From Bdellovibrionota bacterium (GTDB lineage Bacteria; Bdellovibrionota; UBA2428): a stretch of 64,000 nucleotides of DNA. How positions within the stretch are numbered: the stretch's first letter is position 1; every line of letters starts with the position of its first letter. The notes below the pieces were generated by a model that was not told where the DNA came from, did not search any database, and was given only the letters and a program-made list of their open reading frames with translations. Positions 3,025-14,189 of this stretch are shown here, piece by piece. Made by a program: the position numbers and the translations under genes. The DNA lies in the NCBI GenBank assembly GCA_964202055.1, contig CAXNGS010000001.1, positions 358,439-422,438 on the forward strand, given 5' to 3'.

Positions 3025-4155
3025 GTGAGAATTCTTCAGCAATGCTCGCTAAAAACAATTTATATCTGTTTGTTTTTATTGGTATTTAATGCAAATTCCG
3101 CTCTCCTTCCGCAGCGGCCCTGGTGCCAAAGCCCGTTATCGAGAACCCCGCGCGAAGTTCAGGCTTTTCAACACGATTTAGATTCACGAAGCGACGCAGT
3201 GGCTTTGCAACGGGACTACAAACGTCGGACTAATTACACGCCCTTGGCGCTGCTGGTGCTCGACTCTCTTTTACAGGGTGGAGCCTATCGTCAAGCTAGT
3301 CCCGAATTGCTTTCGCGACTCATCAGTTTTGCGATGGTCAGATGGCTGAAAATTCCTAACGAACGCAATGAATCGATCAAGCATCTTTCGGTTTGGTTGC
3401 GAGCCAAAGTCGAAGGACCCATTCATTTTTCGGCGGCCGACATTGAGCGACTTCGAATTTCTTATCAACTTTATGTGGGTCGCCGCCAAGCGATATTTGG
3501 CATGACCGGCGAAGAATATATTGGGCGCGGAGTGGGTTCAATTTTTGGCGACGGATTGGCGACCGCGTTTTTTGGCGGGATGTCGGGCGGAGCTTTTGCC
3601 TTGACCGGCTTGGGGTTTTTTCCACTTCCAATATTTTTGCTCTATAACCACGGCAAGTTTTTGCTTGAAGCTAAAATATTAAATGATTTAAGTTTATCAA
3701 CTAAACACATGGTCGCCGAGACCGATGCAGTTTTAGTCGGAAAAATGAGCGATCGAGTCCCGGTTGCTGAATTGAAATTCCGTTGGAGCTCGGAGCTAGA
3801 AGGAATTTTAAATAAAAAAAGCGGTACGATTCTGATCGAAGGAATGTTACAAAAGTTGATGCTTAATTCCTGCACTCTTCTTAAAGACGGGGCGGAAAAT
3901 AGAAAAGAATCTTTTAAGCTCGTGCTTTCTTGGGCCAAAGACCTGAAGCGGGTCAATCCATTGAATTGGCAAGAAATTCTGGAAACCATGAAAGTCATCC
4001 GGGCAACTTCGATGAGAATGACTTTTGACCAGCCACAGGCATCGGCAATCATCGAAGAACTTCGCAACAGCGTTGAGGGGTGGCGAGCCAGCGAAGAGGC
4101 CTATGCAGCCGGTGATGCGCTTTTAAAGACGAATTTTCAAAGGACTGAACTCTAG
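3025..4155 (+). CDS. Secreted hypothetical protein with a central Gly-rich hydrophobic hairpin
   Basis: Sec-type signal peptide; segment GVGSIFGDGLATAFFGGMSGGAFALTGLGFFPLPIFLLY; 376 aa, 5 nt from the next gene. Confidence 0.6.
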   Translation: MRILQQCSLKTIYICLFLLVFNANSALLPQRPWCQSPLSRTPREVQAFQHDLDSRSDAVALQRDYKRRTNYTPLALLVLDSLLQGGAYRQASPELLSRLISFAMVRWLKIPNERNESIKHLSVWLRAKVEGPIHFSAADIERLRISYQLYVGRRQAIFGMTGEEYIGRGVGSIFGDGLATAFFGGMSGGAFALTGLGFFPLPIFLLYNHGKFLLEAKILNDLSLSTKHMVAETDAVLVGKMSDRVPVAELKFRWSSELEGILNKKSGTILIEGMLQKLMLNSCTLLKDGAENRKESFKLVLSWAKDLKRVNPLNWQEILETMKVIRATSMRMTFDQPQASAIIEELRNSVEGWRASEEAYAAGDALLKTNFQRTEL

Positions 4156-4160
4156 GCATT

Positions 4161-5282
4161 ATGTTTAAGCCCAAGCTGATTTTTTTTCTGGCTTTGGGCT
4201 TTGTATCAAATCATTTCGCTAGTGAAGGATGGGCCGCTAAAATTTGCGAGAGCTCTTTACGGCCGGGGCAAAGTTTAGGTTTATTTAAAATAGATCCGAA
4301 AAGCCGGCGTAGTTCTGCGATTGAGTTTGAAATTTTACCCAACACCCGCTCATTTGTGATCTCGGCAGACCCCGAGGGCGGGACAGTGGCTCACGATTTA
4401 ATGATCGCGGAAATTCGAGATCCCGATGGAAAAATTTTCGTAGCTCAAAGTTTCACGAAACCCAACTGTCGGAAGGGTTGTTTTGGGAACCGGGCATATT
4501 TTCCCGCAAGCGCCAGCCAGATGATTCCCAACGACGCCACTTTCCCAAAACTCAAAGCCGGAAAATGGCGCGCAGTTGTTGAGTCATCGGTGGCCATTGA
4601 CCTGGCTGTTTCACTGCGTGTTCAAAGCCAGGTTCTTTTAGCGTCATCGCAAAAAATGGATAGGCGAACTTTTAAGATTTATTTATATTTGACCGGCAGT
4701 AACGGACTTTCCAATAAAACATTTCTTGATTCAACTTTTAATCGAGAAACTTTGCCAAAAATGAAAGCCATTTTTGAAAAATCTAATATCAAAGTCGAGA
4801 TCAAAAGTGTCTATGCGCTGCCCAAAAAATTTCAAAAATTGAGCATGATCGATGAAGCCGGCTCGATTTCGCTGACCCAGCTTTATGCAAAGTTGCCGCT
4901 GCGAGATGATGGATTTAATTTGATAGTGGTCGATGAATTGAAATCAGATATCGGCTCGGGTTTTGCCGATGGAGTTTCTCCAGGGGCTCCGGCTTCGCTT
5001 AACAAACCTCACATCGTCATCAGTAACCGCCCGCGCAGTGGCGAACGTCGATTGCCGACTCATGCTTTGATCGCCCATGAAGTGGCTCATGGTTTAGGGC
5101 TTTTTCATGTAGAGGAATTCGATGGACTTAAGGATCCCTTGTCGAGCACTCAGGTTGGGCAGGGCGATTTGATGGACATCAACTACAGCGGTGATTTAAG
5201 CGACCAGGCTGCTTGGGCTTTTAATTTGGAGCAATCTTTAGTCATTCGCAGTCATCCCTATGTGGTTCCATTTGTTAGATGA
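4161..5282 (+). CDS. Secreted metzincin zinc metallopeptidase
   Basis: Signal peptide; HEVAHGLGLFH (HExxHxxGxxH) followed by a Met-turn (DLMD). Confidence 0.8.
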   Translation: MFKPKLIFFLALGFVSNHFASEGWAAKICESSLRPGQSLGLFKIDPKSRRSSAIEFEILPNTRSFVISADPEGGTVAHDLMIAEIRDPDGKIFVAQSFTKPNCRKGCFGNRAYFPASASQMIPNDATFPKLKAGKWRAVVESSVAIDLAVSLRVQSQVLLASSQKMDRRTFKIYLYLTGSNGLSNKTFLDSTFNRETLPKMKAIFEKSNIKVEIKSVYALPKKFQKLSMIDEAGSISLTQLYAKLPLRDDGFNLIVVDELKSDIGSGFADGVSPGAPASLNKPHIVISNRPRSGERRLPTHALIAHEVAHGLGLFHVEEFDGLKDPLSSTQVGQGDLMDINYSGDLSDQAAWAFNLEQSLVIRSHPYVVPFVR

Positions 5283-8098: not shown

Positions 8099-9826
8099 TT
8101 ATTTTTTGGAAACTAACTTCTGCCACCATGATTTTGCAGGGCTGGCAGACGCAGCGGTTCGAGTTTTGCTCGGAGCGCCATCGGCTTTTTTGCTGGTCGA
8201 GCTTGCGGCCTTTGAAGTGCTTCCCTTGTTTTCGCTATAGGAACCCTCGCGGCGTGAATTCGATCGAGAGGATCGTGAATCATTGCGTGAATCATTGCGT
8301 GAATCATTTCGTGGTCCACGAGATTGACTTCGCGGTCCACGACTTTGGCTGCCAGTTTGACCGCCAGAATTGGTGCGCGGGCTTTGACTAGCGTCAGTGG
8401 TGCGTTGATTTGAATTTTGAGCTGAATTTTGAAATTGCGGTCGGCCGCTCTGTTTTTGCGGGCGCGAAGAATTTTGTCCATTATTTTGACCCTGATTTTG
8501 GCTAAAAGTTCGGCGATCGTTTGATTGAGGACGGCGGTTATTTTGCTGGGGCCGGCGGCCTTGAGAATTTTGTCCTTGGCTATGAGAAGAGTGCTGCGAA
8601 GAGTGCTGCGAAGAGTGCTGCGAAGAGTGCTGAGAAGACTGCGATGGGCTCGGCGCCGGACGAGCCACTGGCTTACCATCAGACCCCGGATAGGGTCCCG
8701 CGACCACTCGAACTTGCATGCGAATTAAATGTTCGATGTCGCGCAAATAATCGCGCTCTTCGCGATCGCAAAATGATATGGCAATGCCTTCAGCGCCGGC
8801 TCGAGCAGTTCGTCCAATGCGGTGAACATAGCTTTCCGGAACGTTGGGAATTTCGTAATTGATGACGTGGCTGACTCCATCGATGTCGATGCCGCGTGCT
8901 GCAATGTCGGTCGCGACCAAGACTCGAGTCTCTCCGGCTTTAAAGTTATTCAATGCACGGATTCGATTGTTTTGTGATTTGTTTCCGTGAATCGCTTCCG
9001 CAGGAACGCGGGCTTGATTTAAAAATTTTGCGACTTTATCCGCGCCGTGTTTGGTGCGCGTGAAAACCAGCGCGCGCGAAATTTTGGGGTCTTGCATTAA
9101 ATGTTCAAGCAAAGTTCGCTTGGCAGTTTGGTCGACAAAGTAAACGGACTGATCAATTTTCTCAGCAGTGGTTGCGACCGGCGTCACTTCGACTTTTGCG
9201 GGATTGGTTAAGATGTCGTTGGCTAATCTTTGAATGTCAGGAGGCATGGTCGCCGAAAAGAAAAGTGAGTGGCGTTTTTTTGGAAGCACTCGAAGCACGC
9301 GCTTAACGTCGTGAACAAATCCCATGTCAAGCATTCGATCGGCTTCATCGAGCACAAAAATTTCAATGGTGGTCAAATCGACGTAGCGTTGCTCCATTAA
9401 ATCAAGCAAACGCCCAGGCGTGGCAACCAAAATATCGATGCCTCTTTGCAGGGCGTCGGTTTGAGGTCGCTGGCCGACTCCGCCGAAAATAACGGTGTTG
9501 CGAAGTCCAAGATTCGAACCATAGCGATCAAAACTTTCGCCGATTTGAGCGGCTAATTCACGAGTCGGAGTTAATACCAGGCAGCGAATCGGTCGAAAGG
9601 CGCCTTTAGAGGGGGCCGGTCTTTCGGCCAGCAATTGCAAAATCGGCAATCCAAAAGCCGCGGTTTTTCCGGTACCGGTTTGGGCGCATCCAAGCAAATC
9701 ACGGCGTGCTAAAATTTTTGGAATGGCTTGTTCTTGAATGGGTGTGGGGTGCTCGTAACCCTCTTTTTTCAGAGCTTCTAAGAGTGGATCAATCAGGTTC
9801 AGTTGGCTAAACAGCGTGGTGGTCAT
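8099..9826 (-). CDS. rhlE: DEAD-box ATP-dependent RNA helicase (RhlE type) with long disordered S/Q/R/N-rich tail
   Basis: Q motif [51 protein letters not shown]. Confidence 0.9.
8273..8308 (-). repeat. 12-bp in-frame tandem repeat (NDSR x3) in the helicase tail
   Basis: cgtgaatcattg units visible on the + strand. Confidence 0.8.
8585..8638 (-). repeat. 12-bp in-frame tandem repeat (SQHS x4) in the helicase tail
   Basis: gaagagtgctgc units visible on the + strand. Confidence 0.85.
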
Positions 9827-9968
9827 TAGAGCTCGACTTTATCGCATTTATCGAGCTGGGGAGGAAGCTAAATCGGATAGATTTGGGCTCTTTAGGCAAT
9901 TAATTGCTTAAAATATTAGGAGCTGACTAAGCTTTTTAGTTTTTTAATCCGGAGTAAACTCTGAATCG

Positions 9969-11171
9969 ATGAGGCCGCTTTCATTTTTTATAAATCGCCG
10001 CAGATTGAAGCTCATTTTTTTTGGATTCTTAGCCATGATCGGTGGCCCTTTGTTGTTGTTAATTTCATTAGAACTGGCGATTCGGGTGATCAAGCCCGAA
10101 CAAATAAACCCATGGCGATGGAATGCGGCTCGGATATTTAATCCGCCAAAACATTCATTAAATTCGCCCTTTCATCGGCTGATTCAACCGCCGAGGGATC
10201 CCGATGCTTCCTATCTGGATCATGAAATCAACACCGTGGAATTTAGCACTAAACGCGATTTTTCCCTGCGATACCCCAAAGATTTTTTCAATGATTCTTT
10301 GCGATTTAAGCCCAATTCCGATTTTCGTTCGATTGCCAAACACGATAAAGGGGTTTTGTTTAATGTCCGAATTCGATCAGATTCCTATGGACGCCGACTC
10401 ACGATTAACAAAGAGCCTCAAAAGAGAACTAAATTTTTACTAACCATGGGTTGTTCCTATGTCTTTGGTGAAGGACTCAATGATGAGGGAACCATGGCGT
10501 CTTCATTGGCGCGCAAGATGCCGGACTACATGGTTTATAATTACGGAGTTCCGGGTGCTTCACCTGTTCAAATGTGGCAGAAAGCCTCGCAAATGGATCT
10601 CAGAGCCGAAATTCCTGAAGCAAAAGGCACCGCTATTTATTTTCTTTACGCATTTCAACTTCAGCGTTTGCTCGGAAGTATGAAGTGGCTTCGCTATACC
10701 CCCTTGTCGGTTTATGGGCCATGGCTAGCAATGAACAAAAATGAAGACGATGTTGAAATTCGCGGGCGCTTAATAGACCGTAAGATTTTACTGGGTTGGT
10801 ACCAATTACTAGATGCCAGCGCGCTTGCCCAATGGCTAAATTTTGATTGGTTTCCGTGGTACACCGCTGATGATTATCGATTGATGGCGCTGACCTTAAA
10901 AAGTCTCGAAAAGCATCTTCAGCGTAAGTTGGGAATTAATCGTTTGGTTGTGGTTCTGGGGCCCTATTTACAAGGCGGAATCATTCGTGAAGTTCCTGGA
11001 ATAATCGCGGCCCTGAATGAGGAGAAACTGCATTCGCTTGATTTCACCCATTGGAATCTTCGAGAGCTGATGCTGAGATTGCCCAACATAGATGGCAATC
11101 ATCATCCATCGGCGGCCCATAATCGCTTTGTGACTCGATTTCTCGCTCCGGAATTAGAAAAAGAATTGTAG
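9969..11171 (+). CDS. Membrane-anchored SGNH/GDSL-like hydrolase/acyltransferase
   Basis: N-terminal TM helix; GCSYVFGEG block I, NYGVPG block II, DGNHHPS block V. Confidence 0.75.
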   Translation: MRPLSFFINRRRLKLIFFGFLAMIGGPLLLLISLELAIRVIKPEQINPWRWNAARIFNPPKHSLNSPFHRLIQPPRDPDASYLDHEINTVEFSTKRDFSLRYPKDFFNDSLRFKPNSDFRSIAKHDKGVLFNVRIRSDSYGRRLTINKEPQKRTKFLLTMGCSYVFGEGLNDEGTMASSLARKMPDYMVYNYGVPGASPVQMWQKASQMDLRAEIPEAKGTAIYFLYAFQLQRLLGSMKWLRYTPLSVYGPWLAMNKNEDDVEIRGRLIDRKILLGWYQLLDASALAQWLNFDWFPWYTADDYRLMALTLKSLEKHLQRKLGINRLVVVLGPYLQGGIIREVPGIIAALNEEKLHSLDFTHWNLRELMLRLPNIDGNHHPSAAHNRFVTRFLAPELEKEL

Positions 11172-11192
11172 TTTATAAACAGAATTGTCGAA

Positions 11193-11984
11193 TCATTGCC
11201 AGACCACTTCGCGAGTTGCGATCTTGTCTAGGTCTTCGTACTCGTGGCTGGTGATGAATCCCAAAGCAGAAACGTCTTTTCCGCGAACCGTAAAAATCAA
11301 TCGTTCACGGGCCGATAATTGAATGGCGTGCATATGAGTATAGCGGTTCATGATGTGATCTCGAAAACGGGCGTAATCAGCACTTTGGTGGGCGTCGAAG
11401 TATCCTTTTGATTCGACTAATTTTTTCCAAGAATCAAATCGTTTCTGAGCGCCGTCGCCATTTAAGAAAAGTGTTTCCATTTCGCGCAAGGCCCGATGGT
11501 TAAAAAATACTTTTCCAATTTTAACTTCTGCAGGCTTGCTTGTTTCGGGCCGAAAGGGCGAGCGTGAATTCGAAGTGGAATAAAATTTTGGATCGCTGAT
11601 GCGTTCAACGCTTGCCGAGTATTTAGCTAAAACTGCATCACTGTTCGCCTGGTCTCTGACCGCCTCAAACCACTGGGCCATCGCCAACGTTTCACTTTCC
11701 ATCTGGGCGCTTAGTGAACTGAGTTGTCGTGGATTGAGTTGAATTTGTTGTTCCAGTTCTTGAAGCCTTCGCTCAAAATAACTTAGCCATTCGGTTGCGC
11801 TGATTTGAGTCGGGCGTGAAGCAAGTTCTGGTCGCGTCCATGTCGCGGCCATTGTAAGTGGAAAACTGCAGCTATAAGCGGAAGGTGGGGGAGCGGAAGC
11901 TTCGGATGTGTGGATGAATGCAGCGTGGGCACCTGTGCTGCTCAAGAATCCAAGCAAGATCCAATATTTATTAAAAGTCCCCAT
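11193..11984 (-). CDS. Secreted protein with a C-terminal RelE/ParE-superfamily (mRNA interferase-like) domain
   Basis: Signal peptide AHA|A. The C-terminal ~105 aa read VFFNHRALREM...FDSWKKLVESKG...DHIM...HAIQLSARERLIFTV...ITSHEY, a RelE-like pattern. Confidence 0.55.
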   Translation of the reverse strand: MGTFNKYWILLGFLSSTGAHAAFIHTSEASAPPPSAYSCSFPLTMAATWTRPELASRPTQISATEWLSYFERRLQELEQQIQLNPRQLSSLSAQMESETLAMAQWFEAVRDQANSDAVLAKYSASVERISDPKFYSTSNSRSPFRPETSKPAEVKIGKVFFNHRALREMETLFLNGDGAQKRFDSWKKLVESKGYFDAHQSADYARFRDHIMNRYTHMHAIQLSARERLIFTVRGKDVSALGFITSHEYEDLDKIATREVVWQ

Positions 11985-12123
11985 TTCGGCGCCCGGAGCT
12001 TCTCATGAATAACGCGTGGTGTCAATTTGGCATTGGCCTCGCTCGAAGAAATCCCGACTTAGCTCAAGTATATGTTTTTATTGTTATATTTATTTAGATT
12101 AAACAGTCTATGTTAGTTTTGTT

Positions 12124-13326
12124 TCATGGTGCTAACTGAAATTTCTCGAAATCTGCCAGACTCGCTTCGATTCGTTTTTTAAGAGACGAGCCTTGGTAGC
12201 GACCGACCCAATTCCATTTTTGAATCAATAATTTTTGAGCATTCCGATCGGTCTTGAGATCCAGCGCCGCGACTACTTGGCCGTCGATTAAAACCGGAAG
12301 TGTAAAATAGCCAAAGACTCTTTTGGCTGGGGGAACATAGGCCTCAAAACGATGATCGTAATCGAAAAAAACTTTCAAACGCTTGCGCTGGATGATCAGC
12401 GGATCAAATGGAGAAAGAATGTGAACTTGGGCTGGATCGACTGTTGGAATCGAATCTAATTCCGATGGGCGAATCCAATGCGCGATTTTTTCAGAACCCG
12501 TGATTTGGATTTCGACCAATTCTTTAAGCTTTGTCATTTTTTCGAGAACTCGTTTAACACCAATTTTTCGTTTGGGTTCTAAATGGCAGATGGATTCTAG
12601 GGAAACAATTGATTGGCTGCGCAGCGATCGTTCCACCAGGTAATTTAAAATTTCGATTTCAGTAGCGGCTTTTGGTTTTTCAGACCAATTGAAATGGCGA
12701 TCGAGTAAATCATATTTTTTCAGCATTCCCTGGCGCTCGTTAACCACTAAGCGACCGCTGTAAAATCCCAGAAGCAGTGCTTTTCTTGAGGGCTTGCGAC
12801 TGCCCCAGGCGTGTTCCTTTTCAACCAGCACTTCGTCTTGGATGTCACGAATGGAAATAGGTCCCTGGCTTTTGATCATGCGCAAAACTTTTTGTAGTTC
12901 GTTTTTTTTCACAGCGCTTAGCCATTTGCCTGGAGATTTTTTTATGCGATTCATAGCCGGCAAAAAAAATCGGAAATCTTTTGCCGGCACATAGGAAAGA
13001 GCGTGGGTCCAATATTCAAACACTGTTTTGTTTTTGCTTTGAGCGTCATGAAGGTTTTGGCGTTCATAGCCAGGGATGCGATTGTAGAGAATGTGATGGT
13101 GGCAGCGCTCAATCACATTGATGGTGTCAATTTGCACGTAGCCTAAATGTTCGATGGCCTTTTGGGTGGCAAGCGCGCCGCCTGAACCAAAGGGCTCATT
13201 GACGTCGAGTTTTTGGGCTCGAATCCAAAGTCGGCGGGCCTGACCGGGGCTAATTTTGGGAATAGCATCGGTGCTAGGGCGGAGATTCATTAGAATCCTA
13301 ATAAGGGAAATTCCAGACTGAGACAA
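12124..13326 (-). CDS. ycaQ: YcaQ/AlkZ-family (HTH_42) DNA crosslink glycosylase; start may be 13290
   Basis: VQIDTINV (QxD catalytic motif), FEYWTHA, ILSPFDPLI, RFEAYVP..KR.FGYF.LPVL. Confidence 0.85.
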   Translation of the reverse strand: MSQSGISLIRILMNLRPSTDAIPKISPGQARRLWIRAQKLDVNEPFGSGGALATQKAIEHLGYVQIDTINVIERCHHHILYNRIPGYERQNLHDAQSKNKTVFEYWTHALSYVPAKDFRFFLPAMNRIKKSPGKWLSAVKKNELQKVLRMIKSQGPISIRDIQDEVLVEKEHAWGSRKPSRKALLLGFYSGRLVVNERQGMLKKYDLLDRHFNWSEKPKAATEIEILNYLVERSLRSQSIVSLESICHLEPKRKIGVKRVLEKMTKLKELVEIQITGSEKIAHWIRPSELDSIPTVDPAQVHILSPFDPLIIQRKRLKVFFDYDHRFEAYVPPAKRVFGYFTLPVLIDGQVVAALDLKTDRNAQKLLIQKWNWVGRYQGSSLKKRIEASLADFEKFQLAP

Positions 13327-13400
13327 TTCATGAAATAAGATGGCGAATGTTAATATTTGTAATTTGAGTTAAATCCAATGCTTCATGCGAGGATATTTTA

Positions 13401-14189
13401 ATGCCTGAATTGGCCGAAGTGGCGCTCTACGCACGTTCACTTAATCAAGTAAGCCGTCGTCAGCAAGTTTTGCGGGTGTCTTTTCCCAATCAAAAAGACG
13501 GTGGTCAGAAAATTATCGAACCGGAAGTTCAGCGAAAACTTAAAGAACTTGTGGGGACTTCACTTAGTTTTCATTCCAGAGGCAAAGGTTTGCTTTTGAA
13601 TGAGGCTAAATCAAATGAAGCGGTGGCTGAATTTCGATTGGGGATGACTGGGCAATTTCATCTGCAGGCTCCGCTTGGAAAGTGGAAGCGCCATTGTTTT
13701 TTGGAGATTGAATTAAAGGATCAAATCATTCATTACTCTGATGCTAGACGATTTGGTCGGGTGCAAGTACCTCGCGATATCGGCACCGCAATTGGCGGCT
13801 TTGGTGGCAGCAAGGGTTTTTGGGTCGAAAAAAAACCGCAACCTCCAAAAGGTTTTTTAACTCAATCCCGAATCAGTTGGTTGTTGGGAACGGGCCAGCA
13901 AAGTGGTGTCGGCAATTATATGGCCAACGAAGCTTTAGGTTTGCTTAAACTTTCGCCTTTTCAGCCTTGTCGCGATGAAGCTGAAGCTCGGGCACTTCTT
14001 CGCAAGTGCGCAGCCATTGCCCAATTAGCGTTTGATTTGGGTGCAGAAACCTATCGCGATCAATTTTACAACATGGCTATCGAAGGCAGCCAGCTTAGTG
14101 ATTTTTGCAAATTTTATGGCAATCCCAAAATCCCTCGCCAAGTTTACAGAGGGCGCCCGGTTTATTCGAAATTCCAGCTAGACTCCTAA
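13401..14189 (+). CDS. Fpg/Nei-family DNA glycosylase lacking the C4 zinc finger
   Basis: N-terminal MPELAEV, RGK, LGMTG, DARRFG, H2TH motif GVGNYMANEAL. No CxxC pairs at the C-terminus, which ends in RGRPVY. Confidence 0.8.
   Translation: MPELAEVALYARSLNQVSRRQQVLRVSFPNQKDGGQKIIEPEVQRKLKELVGTSLSFHSRGKGLLLNEAKSNEAVAEFRLGMTGQFHLQAPLGKWKRHCFLEIELKDQIIHYSDARRFGRVQVPRDIGTAIGGFGGSKGFWVEKKPQPPKGFLTQSRISWLLGTGQQSGVGNYMANEALGLLKLSPFQPCRDEAEARALLRKCAAIAQLAFDLGAETYRDQFYNMAIEGSQLSDFCKFYGNPKIPRQVYRGRPVYSKFQLDS

What the first reader, a model, noticed from the sequence alone, without database searches (positions are those of the whole stretch)
11193..11984. RelE-like ribonuclease domain behind a Sec signal peptide, with no antitoxin: candidate exported translation-killing effector
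Seen: an N-terminal signal peptide (AHA|A), a helical linker, then ~105 aa (about 11193-11520) with the RelE/YoeB-type layout. That layout is strand VFFN, helix RALREM, helix FDSWKKLV, HAIQLSARERLIFTV and terminal HEY. The gene is standalone, with no small partner ORF next to it. Known: RelE-superfamily toxins act on ribosome-bound mRNA in the cytoplasm and are normally paired with an antitoxin. Inference: export replaces the antitoxin as self-protection, and the domain is meant for another cell's cytoplasm. That would fit a predatory or symbiotic Bdellovibrionota lifestyle.
Basis: partly seen in the sequence, partly recalled or inferred. Interest (0 to 1): 0.78.

Follow-up and report, generated by a model that had tools for sequence, protein, structure and literature searches.

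The report
Exported RelE-type toxin without antitoxin
A lake bacterium related to predatory bacteria encodes a protein that puts an export signal in front of a RelE-type ribosome-toxin domain and has no antidote gene beside it, so it may be a weapon used outside the cell, though its activity is untested.

Summary
ORF 11193..11984 (-) encodes 263 aa. It has a Sec-type signal peptide (AHA|A after residue 21), a lone Cys39, a three-helix region (63-130) and a C-terminal RelE/HigB/YoeB-fold domain (155-254).

Fold evidence: the alignment-based AlphaFold model has pLDDT above 85 over most of the domain. VIA-align gives Z 10-11 to HP0892-type toxin, YafQ, RelE, HigB and YoeB. Profile-profile probability to free-standing toxins of the phylum is 98.5%, and those toxins pass NCBIfam RelE_StbE.

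Those small relatives carry a downstream HTH antitoxin in 17 of 19 loci. None of the 8 fused loci examined does. All 10 fused proteins with a complete N-terminus look like signal-peptide proteins, against 0 of 22 small toxins. The family is tiny.

H247, Y249 and R228 are invariant. The position matching an Arg of YoeB's SRRI motif is Gln here.

Export and RelE ancestry are well supported. RNase activity, toxicity and delivery into other cells are inferred. I class it as a new variant of a known kind: secreted BECR RNases exist, and a secreted "Tox-RelE" was noted once (PMC3482391).

The parts
11193..11984 (-). Whole gene, 263 codons plus stop (protein P0001)
   Evidence: Full-length homologue P0002 (E 1.9e-21, residues 33-260) and P0003 (the later-start form of the G001 protein; E 1.8e-11).
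11922..11984 (-). Sec/SPase I-type signal peptide, residues 1-21 (n: MGTFNK; h: YWILLGFL; c: SSTGAHA, predicted cut AHA|A)
   Evidence: Sequence. Heuristic flags 10 of 10 N-complete fused relatives, 0 of 22 small toxins and 456 of 1502 genome ORFs. SignalP not available.
11805..11921 (-). Low-confidence, Pro/Ser/Ala-rich segment, residues 22-60; contains the protein's only cysteine
   Evidence: pLDDT below 50 for 19-48.
11856..11870 (-). Lone-cysteine tag C39-S-F-P-L, 18 residues behind the predicted cleavage site
   Evidence: A Cys is present in all seven sequences inspected: six family lineages (CSFPL, CEWDL, CQLNL, CGTPL, CDSPL, CTQLV) plus the separate G283 fusion (CGSME). The motif C..[SP]L is 3.2-fold enriched at residues 19-65 of this genome's ORFs.
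11583..11804 (-). Acidic three-helix region, residues 61-134 (helices 63-83, 85-108, 112-130)
   Evidence: pLDDT about 87-96, but the cut at 50-138 drew only 7 alignment rows. Region 22-154 has pI 5.2. Fold matches only designed helical bundles, which is not informative.
11523..11582 (-). Flexible linker, residues 135-154
   Evidence: pLDDT below 50 for 140-148.
11223..11522 (-). RelE/HigB/YoeB-fold (BECR) domain, residues 155-254. Invariant: W186, G194, R228, H247, Y249. Nearly invariant: D209, and positions 212 and 231 (Leu and Tyr in most members; Met and Phe in this protein). H210 lies in the F-R-D-H motif.
   Evidence: Domain net charge +4, pI 9.57.
11193..11222 (-). C-terminal tail, residues 255-263, plus stop. 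The helix 249-256 (start of the EDLDKIATREVVWQ tail, residues 250-263) is shared only with P0002 and the G001 protein.
11985..12123 (-). Upstream intergenic region (139 nt) between the AlkZ-like gene and this gene; holds no antitoxin ORF
   Evidence: No sigma-70-like site was found here and there are no Rfam matches in 9500-13500.

Best explanation
The gene encodes a protein that is exported through the Sec pathway. Its mature form has an acidic helical N-terminal region and a basic C-terminal domain. That domain descends from the toxin half of the higBA-type (toxin first, HTH antitoxin second) RelE/StbE toxin-antitoxin modules common in this phylum. The antitoxin has been lost and a signal peptide gained, so the folded domain should exist only outside the producer's cytoplasm. 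The most likely role is an RNase toxin or effector that acts on other cells. By analogy with RelE, HigB and YoeB it would enter the ribosomal A site and cut mRNA. The variable N-terminal region would serve in targeting, entry or as a pro-region. Shown: the gene, the export-type N-terminus conserved across the family, the RelE fold and homology, the absence of a neighbouring antitoxin, and retention of the C-terminal His/Tyr pair and a basic surface. Inferred: cleavage of the signal peptide, secretion beyond the periplasm, RNase activity, ribosome dependence, and entry into a target cell. The confidence given is for the whole composite claim; the export and RelE-ancestry parts alone I hold at about 0.9.
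For: Fold: VIA-align Z 11.1 (4lsy_A, H. pylori toxin), 11.0 (YafQ 9lew_B), 10.7 (RelE 3bpq_B), 10.4 (HigB1 7nbu_Y) and 10.0 (YoeB), model range 155-254. 68 of 992 chains reached Z of 8 or more. Foldseek's list is made up largely of RelE, YoeB, YafQ and HigB toxins, with some ParE-type entries, at prob 0.99-1.00 and TM by target 0.54-0.78. The ESM Atlas's own single-sequence model, which is independent of my alignment, also matches RelE/YafQ/YoeB clusters over about 150-251. Homology: a profile of 6 fused domains hits about 90-115-aa ORFs in 171 of 401 genomes of the phylum, best E 5e-12 per genome. hhalign of fused against 17 small toxins gives 98.5%, E 2.4e-15. The reverse HMM, built from small toxins only, finds all 12 fused proteins; P0001 scores 22.6 bits. 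The small toxins pass NCBIfam TIGR02385 RelE_StbE in 4 of 5 tested and Pfam ParE_toxin or YafQ cut-offs in 3 of 11. Antitoxin contrast: 17 of 19 small-toxin loci have an 88-112-aa ORF directly downstream; the 4 tested are all Pfam HTH_3. None of the 8 fused loci examined has one. No full-length match to that antitoxin profile exists in G000; the best is E 3e-5 over the HTH only. Export: 10 of 10 N-complete fused proteins have a signal-peptide-like N-terminus, against 0 of 22 small toxins. Active-site-type residues: H247 and Y249 are invariant in 30 of 30 aligned sequences, as is R228. YoeB's C-terminal His83/Tyr84 contact the scissile or 3' phosphate (PMC6821326, passages read). The domain stays basic at +4, pI 9.57; the small toxins have median +6, pI 9.7. 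The tree suggests that exported or multidomain fusions arose more than once: 3 label changes, 3-4 in bootstraps.
Against: No activity data exist, and P0001 itself gives no significant Pfam, NCBIfam, PADLOC or PDB sequence hit. The column that the HMM alignment pairs with the second Arg of S. aureus YoeB's S-R-R-I motif is Gln222 in P0001 and Tyr in P0002; it is R, H, K and R in the other four lineages. The preceding conserved Arg of the small toxins is His219. The Lys/Arg-rich loop of the small toxins is depleted here. No route into a target cytoplasm is known, and ribosomes are absent outside cells. No immunity gene, secretion-system gene or conserved operon partner lies nearby. The signal peptide was judged only by a home-made heuristic that flags 30% of this genome's ORFs. 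The starred branches of the tree do not exclude a single origin of the fusions. The predatory lifestyle of this organism is not established.
Confidence: 0.45

Rival explanations
1. An exported, ribosome-independent RNase that degrades free RNA in the periplasm, in the medium or inside an already breached prey cell. It would serve feeding or scavenging and would not be a translation-blocking effector.
For: Export places it where there are no ribosomes. [quoted passage not shown] The H/Y pair and the basic surface are retained. Relatives of this phylum are known for secreted nucleases (title and abstract of PMC7925074 seen in the listing).
Against: RelE-family enzymes are poor RNases off the ribosome. 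Free RelE is described as inactive in PMC11980606. The family is rare and small, which fits poorly with a core digestive enzyme.
Confidence: 0.2
2. A catalytically degenerate RelE-fold module reused as an extracytoplasmic binding or structural domain, with no toxic activity.
For: Gln222 and His219 replace the two conserved Arg of the small toxins, and the basic loop is eroded. Long branches in the tree: P0002 1.64, P0006 2.62. No antitoxin or immunity gene is needed if the protein is harmless.
Against: H247, Y249, R228, W186 and G194 are invariant and D209 nearly so across fused and free toxins. The domain remains basic. Active sites in this superfamily are known to vary between families (recalled, not tested here).
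Confidence: 0.2
3. An ordinary cytoplasmic or membrane-anchored toxin. The hydrophobic N-terminus would be an uncleaved anchor or an artefact of start-codon choice, and an unlinked antitoxin would neutralise the toxin.
For: G001 carries two full-length matches to the HigA-like antitoxin profile at unlinked sites, E 7.7e-32 and 6.2e-28. The genome is only 73.5% complete. Internal Met codons exist (M45, M95).
Against: ATG 11984 is the first start in the frame, and the hydrophobic N-terminus is conserved in all 10 N-complete relatives. With a positive n-region, the C-terminal domain would face outward even if the signal is not cleaved. G000 has no full-length antitoxin match.
Confidence: 0.07
4. 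A ParE-like delivered gyrase poison, not an RNase.
For: ParE shares the fold: ParE2 5czf Z 9.2, ParE 7r5a Z 8.5. Pfam ParE_toxin is among the hits of the small relatives.
Against: RNase members score 1-2 Z units higher. The nearest relatives pass the RelE_StbE mRNA-interferase model. The C-terminal His/Tyr pair typical of the RNase branch is invariant. Pfam ParE_toxin also contains RelE itself (PMC11980606).
Confidence: 0.04

Closest known systems
HigB/RelE/StbE-type type II toxins (NCBIfam TIGR02385; structures of YafQ, HP0892/HP0894, RelE, HigB, YoeB)
   Same: Same fold (Z 10-11) and demonstrable homology. Shares the motifs W...G, [FY]-x-D-[HE], R-L-I-[YF] and the C-terminal H-[ED]-Y. Basic domain.
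   Different: Has a signal peptide and a 130-residue N-terminal extension. No adjacent HTH antitoxin. Two conserved Arg are replaced (H219, Q222). Not recognised by the curated family models.
Tox-RelE in polymorphic toxin systems (Zhang et al. 2012, PMC3482391; passages read)
   Same: A classical RelE domain at the C-terminus of a secreted protein. Their table lists signal-peptide ('T2SS') export.
   Different: That paper reports a single instance (Paenibacillus elgii), and its table lists RHS repeats, a HINT protease and Imm54 immunity for Tox-RelE. Here there are no RHS or HINT domains and no downstream immunity gene. The N-terminal part is what varies between members, not the toxin tip.
Nuclease colicins E5 and D and CdiA-CT RNases (BECR fold)
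   Same: N-terminal helical or variable part followed by a C-terminal BECR-fold RNase meant for another cell's cytoplasm (fold unification as stated in PMC3482391).
   Different: Those belong to other BECR clades, target tRNA, have cognate immunity proteins and use lysis-protein or two-partner secretion, not a plain Sec signal (recalled).
Txp40 insecticidal toxin of Xenorhabdus (PDB 7xbj)
   Same: A secreted toxin. Its residues 229-365 superpose on model residues 153-247 (Z 9.0, rmsd 2.5, 86 aligned). Foldseek aligns 222-247 columns including the helical N-part (E 7e-4 to 1e-3).
   Different: 15% identity and overall TM only 0.24-0.27. No sequence relation was shown. I found no paper in the library that links Txp40 with RelE, and the structure paper is not held.
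Multidomain RelE/ParE toxins surveyed by Gerdes 2025 (PMC11980606): fused TA, PtuZ, ToxM
   Same: A RelE-superfamily domain inside a larger protein.
   Different: ToxM keeps the BECR domain in the cytoplasm in front of a TM segment and has a ToxR antitoxin. The paper's text has 0 occurrences of 'signal peptide' or 'secret', and it set aside fusions without an identifiable antitoxin.

Membership tests
RelE/ParE superfamily (BECR fold) | [quoted passage not shown] | tested here: met
   DSSP order E159-161, H163-174, H177-193, E218-222, E227-234, E237-245, H249-256. Z 10.0-11.1 to the H. pylori toxin (4lsy/4ltt), YafQ, RelE, HigB1 and YoeB, covering nearly the whole target chains.
RelE/ParE superfamily (BECR fold) | Sequence match to curated family models | tested here: not met
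   P0001 and its domain alone have no RelE-type hit in Pfam or NCBIfam. Homology is seen only through profiles: hhalign 98.5% and the small-toxin HMM at 22.6 bits. Those small toxins pass TIGR02385 in 4 of 5 tested.
RelE/ParE superfamily, RNase branch | Catalytic or phosphate-contacting residues (for YoeB: Glu46, Arg59, Arg65, His83, Tyr84; PMC6821326) | tested here: inconclusive
   H247 and Y249 are invariant. The column paired with the second Arg of S. aureus YoeB's SRRI motif is Q222 here and R/K/H in 4 of 6 lineages. There was no residue-level structural superposition.
RelE/ParE superfamily, RNase branch | Ribosome-dependent mRNA cleavage | not testable with these tools
   Needs biochemistry.
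Type II toxin-antitoxin module (higBA type) | Adjacent, co-oriented antitoxin gene | tested here: not met
   No same-strand ORF of 30 aa or more abuts the gene. None of 8 fused loci has an HTH partner, against 17 of 19 small-toxin loci.
Polymorphic toxin system | Immunity gene immediately downstream; variable toxin tips on a conserved trafficking N-part | tested here: not met
   The downstream neighbour is a convergent SGNH-like gene. In this family the C-terminal domain is conserved and the N-parts differ, 244 to 593 aa.
Sec/SPase I secretory protein | Positive n-region, 7-15-residue hydrophobic core, small residues at -3 and -1 | tested here: met
   K6; YWILLGFL; A19-H-A21|A22. Heuristic only; no trained predictor was available.
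Bacterial lipoprotein | Lipobox with Cys at +1 of the cleavage site | tested here: not met
   The only Cys is residue 39, 18 residues after the predicted cut.

The most novel reading that the evidence does not exclude
Relatives of predatory bacteria have turned their own higBA-type addiction toxins into antitoxin-free, Sec-exported weapons, probably more than once. The RelE domain would shut down translation in prey or competitors. The variable acidic N-terminal region would act as an entry module or removable pro-region. The lone-cysteine tag behind the signal peptide, shared with other exported proteins of the same genome, would couple the protein to a common carrier or export route.
Probability: 0.3. 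Interest if true: 0.8.

Novelty: new variant of a known kind. Interest (0 to 1): 0.6.

Why it matters
RelE-type toxins are textbook intracellular enzymes that are always discussed with their antitoxins. A conserved family that replaces the antitoxin with an export signal would show a route by which addiction-module toxins become secreted effectors. Such a route has been proposed for other toxin folds, but I could find only one noted instance for classical RelE (PMC3482391). It would also give a small candidate protein, 263 aa here, for studying how a ribosome-dependent RNase could be delivered into another bacterium. Finally, it would add a translation-targeting agent to the mostly hydrolytic arsenal known from Bdellovibrio-like organisms.

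Tried and rejected
Searches with P0001 itself found nothing significant:
- Pfam, NCBIfam, PADLOC and PDB sequence searches. The weak GlnD_UR_UTase/PRK05092 matches (E 0.34 and 0.014) were treated as chance.
- The search for homologous proteins found only the protein itself.
- The fused-domain profile found nothing among proteins of 53-195 aa and nothing in the PDB.

Structure and binding:
- The single-sequence AlphaFold model was unusable (pLDDT 39).
- Complex prediction of the helical region (50-138) against the RelE domain (150-263), testing a cis-inhibitor or pro-domain idea, gave no verdict (score 0.23, mark 0.32). It says nothing either way.

Collection scans:
- It found no relatives in genome contigs with P0001 or in metagenome contigs with A8.

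Expression and local signals:
- The look-up of sequencing runs listed no RNA holder; the DNA sits in lake-water metagenomes.
- The promoter and terminator scan was at chance level.
- No Rfam match in 9500-13500.
- GC content is uniform, so there is no sign of an island.

Context checks:
- The AlkZ-like neighbour has no match in G001 and the SGNH-like neighbour is only 36% identical. I therefore make no claim of unusually fast evolution or of synteny.
- The 465-aa gene downstream of the G002 member recurs only in genus g2, so I rejected it as a general partner.
- L006 (G010, E 0.1) was judged a chance hit.

Literature:
- The Txp40 structure paper and the 2026 BECR preprint could not be read.
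- Searches for a described exported RelE in Bdellovibrio-like organisms surfaced none. This is not proof of absence.

Full report
THE GENE. The ORF listing and translate confirm a 263-codon ORF at 11193..11984 on the minus strand. Its ATG is the first start in the frame; the genome search reports an open frame of 269 aa. The gene lies 139 nt downstream of a co-oriented AlkZ-like DNA glycosylase gene (12124..13326; Pfam PF06224, E 2.3e-60). It converges on a 400-aa gene (9969..11171) with only a weak SGNH/GDSL match. GC content is uniform across the region. No Rfam family matches in 9500-13500, and the promoter and terminator scan is at chance level.

ROUTINE ANNOTATION FAILS. The protein has no significant hit in Pfam, NCBIfam, PADLOC or PDB sequences. 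The word-indexed search of 5.8 billion proteins returns only the protein itself. The exhaustive HMMER search of 1.84 billion representatives returns three proteins. These are the protein itself, P0002 (258 aa, E 1.9e-21, aligned over residues 33-260) and P0003 (E 1.8e-11). A single-sequence AlphaFold model was useless (pLDDT 39).

A SMALL FAMILY WITH ONE ARCHITECTURE. Six-frame searches of 41 related genomes found the C-terminal 100 residues in longer ORFs:
- G001, same genus, 244 aa.
- G028, 506 aa.
- G002, 510 aa.
- G011, 593 aa.

Reading these ORFs, together with the 'longer' protein search (7 proteins of 207-581 aa, none with a Pfam domain, all 'hypothetical'), gives about eight distinct members in six lineages. 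All begin with a hydrophobic, signal-peptide-like N-terminus and end with the conserved domain. The middle parts differ in length and sequence. W186, L189, G194, Y204, R228, H247 and Y249 are invariant in the family. One cluster member carries the source label 'Bacteriovorax sp.'. That label is my only named taxonomic anchor.

LINK TO RelE. A profile of the six C-terminal domains (A2) matched ORFs in 171 of 401 genomes sampled from the phylum. Most are free-standing ORFs of about 90-115 aa, with best E 5e-12 per genome. Evidence on these small proteins:
- Pfam ParE_toxin, YafQ_toxin, HigB-like and YoeB models hit them; 3 of 11 are above gathering score.
- NCBIfam TIGR02385, 'mRNA interferase toxin, RelE/StbE family', is passed by 4 of 5 tested.
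- Their profile finds GraT/HigB, YafQ, HP0892 and YoeB chains in the PDB.

Profile-profile comparison of the fused domains with 17 small toxins gives 98.5% probability and E 2.4e-15 over 87 columns. An HMM built from the small toxins alone, and therefore not circular, detects all 12 fused proteins. P0001 scores 22.6 bits, E 6.7e-6 for a search space of 1502.

STRUCTURE. With a 30-row alignment, AlphaFold gives mean pLDDT 80.1. The elements are three helices (63-130), a disordered linker, and then strand, helix, helix, three strands and helix over 155-256. Foldseek's list is made up largely of RelE-family RNase toxins, with some ParE-type entries (prob 0.99-1.00, TM by target 0.54-0.78). Only 2 hits reach E 1e-3 or better, because the query is the whole two-domain model. 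VIA-align gives the following, each covering nearly the whole target:
- Z 11.1 to the H. pylori toxin 4lsy_A.
- Z 11.0 to YafQ.
- Z 10.7 to M. jannaschii RelE.
- Z 10.4 to HigB1.
- Z 10.0 to YoeB.
- ParE members score 7.8-9.2.

The ESM Atlas's own model of this protein, made without my alignment, also matches RelE/YafQ/YoeB clusters over about 150-251.

ANTITOXIN. In 17 of 19 small-toxin loci an ORF of 88-112 aa follows the toxin directly or overlaps its end. The four I tested are Pfam HTH_3, and 14 align as one family. This is the higBA gene order. None of the eight fused loci I inspected has such a partner: the window, L002, L003, L005, L009, L018, L041 and L042. The antitoxin profile finds only HTH-limited weak matches in G000 (best E 3e-5). 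G001 has two full-length matches at unlinked sites. G000 is 73.5% complete, so an unlinked gene cannot be excluded.

EXPORT. P0001 has K6, the core YWILLGFL and A-H-A|A. A strict home-made rule flags 10 of 10 N-complete fused proteins and 0 of 22 small toxins. It also flags 456 of 1502 ORFs of the genome, so it is permissive. With a positive n-region the C-terminal domain faces outward whether or not the peptide is cleaved. Further exported or large fusions exist elsewhere in the phylum:
- G279, 280 aa, signal peptide plus a Cys-rich N-part.
- G283, 229 aa.
- G247, at least 623 aa.
- G211, at least 490 aa.

In a maximum-likelihood tree of 34 domains, the P0001 family forms one group (support 91/74). 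The other four fusions sit among the small toxins. The 'fused' label needs 3 changes (3-4 in bootstraps), but the well-supported branches alone do not force more than one origin.

IS IT STILL AN ENZYME? H247 and Y249 at the end of the last strand are invariant in all 30 aligned sequences, as is R228. In YoeB the C-terminal His83 and Tyr84, with Arg59 and Arg65 and Glu46, contact the scissile phosphate and 2'-OH (PMC6821326, passages). The F-R-D-H210 motif lines up with Y-K-D-H of HP0892 in the printed HMMER alignment. The domain is basic (+4, pI 9.57), like the small toxins (median +6, pI 9.7), whereas residues 22-154 are acidic (pI 5.2).

Against activity: the two Arg conserved in the small toxins (G-Q-R and S-I-R-L) are His219 and Gln222 in P0001. 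The second aligns with an Arg of YoeB's S-R-R-I. It is Tyr in P0002 but R, H, K and R in the other lineages. Activity is therefore plausible but not assured for this particular member.

WHAT IT MOST LIKELY DOES. I commit to an exported RelE-type RNase that works against other cells. I hold the composite claim at roughly even odds. The export and ancestry parts are at about 0.9, and the 'translation-killing effector in another cell' part at about 0.4. The rivals are a ribosome-independent scavenging RNase, a degenerate binding module, a mis-read cytoplasmic toxin and a ParE-like poison. I tested the idea that the acidic helical region is a cis-inhibitor with complex prediction and got no verdict.

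COMPARISON WITH THE LITERATURE. Gerdes 2025 (PMC11980606; abstract and passages) surveys multidomain RelE/ParE proteins: fused TA, PtuZ, and ToxM with a cytoplasmic BECR domain. The text never mentions signal peptides or secretion, and it set aside fusions without an antitoxin. Its supplementary tables were not opened and could list such proteins. Zhang et al. 2012 (PMC3482391; passages) define the BECR fold shared by RelE, colicins E5/D, barnase and EndoU. They state that the classical RelE domain was seen only once as a polymorphic-toxin tip, and their table lists RHS, HINT and Imm54 for it. By fold, the secreted insecticidal toxin Txp40 has a RelE-like C-terminal domain (Z 9.0). I found no paper that says so and could not read its structure paper. 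My searches for exported RelE in Bdellovibrio-like organisms found nothing. The finding is therefore a new variant of a known kind: a known fold and a known general strategy, in an undescribed, immunity-free, Sec-signal form.

SIDE OBSERVATION THAT MAY BEAR ON MECHANISM. The protein's only cysteine (C39, in C-S-F-P-L) is conserved in position class in all six lineages of the family, and the separately derived G283 fusion also carries a Cys behind its signal peptide. In this genome the motif C..[SP]L occurs 21 times at residues 19-65, against 40 times in all later residues. That is a 3.2-fold enrichment per residue (binomial p 5e-5). About a dozen cases lie just behind obvious signal peptides, including two adjacent genes of this window. 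With the stricter rule it is 9 of 456 flagged ORFs against 6 of 1046 unflagged. Earlier notes of this scan describe similar 'cysteine tags' on exported proteins of other Bdellovibrio-like genomes. I treated them as a lead and tested it only in this genome.

Noticed in passing
window 3025..4155 (+) and 4161..5282 (+); also G000 C1:341221-343122, C1:478645-479445, C4:161491-162198, C5:4909-6291, C2:250140-251123, C5:46526-47236: Exported proteins of this genome, none with a Pfam hit among the two tested, carry a C-x-x-[S/P]-L motif 5-30 residues behind the signal peptide, as the RelE fusion does. The motif is 3.2-fold enriched at residues 19-65.
   Followed up: partly
window 12124..13326 (-) and 13401..14189 (+): An AlkZ-like DNA glycosylase and an Fpg/Nei-type glycosylase are divergently arranged next to the finding. 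The AlkZ-like gene has no match in the same-genus genome G001.
   Followed up: no
window 8099..9826 (-): A DEAD-box helicase with a C-terminal tail of about 200 residues of low complexity, rich in Ser, Gln, Arg and Asn and containing SQHS repeats.
   Followed up: no
G001:C18:53055-53372 and G001:C15:5514-5801: Two full-length HigA-like antitoxin matches (E 7.7e-32 and 6.2e-28) in a genome where the fused-domain profile found only the fused toxin at E 0.001 or better. Their partner toxins were not looked at.
   Followed up: no
L005 94..1491 (-) and G011:C61:6721-8112: In genus g2 the 510-aa family member is followed, 3 nt later, by a 465-aa protein with a signal peptide and hydrophobic segments. 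This protein is 82% identical between the two genomes and was not found in G000, G001 or G028.
   Followed up: partly
L015, L019, L026 (G224, G056, G359): A distinct clade of 115-aa RelE-like proteins that are acidic (pI 5.4-6.3), unlike the other small toxins. They still have a downstream HTH gene.
   Followed up: no
PDB 7xbj (Txp40) against model residues 153-247: [quoted passage not shown] I found no paper in the library that notes a RelE-like fold for Txp40.
   Followed up: partly
ESM Atlas structure row 2: A cluster of 393-aa hypothetical proteins with 873 members, commonest in Myxococcota, aligns to residues 144-259. This may be another multidomain RelE-fold family in a predatory group.
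   Followed up: no
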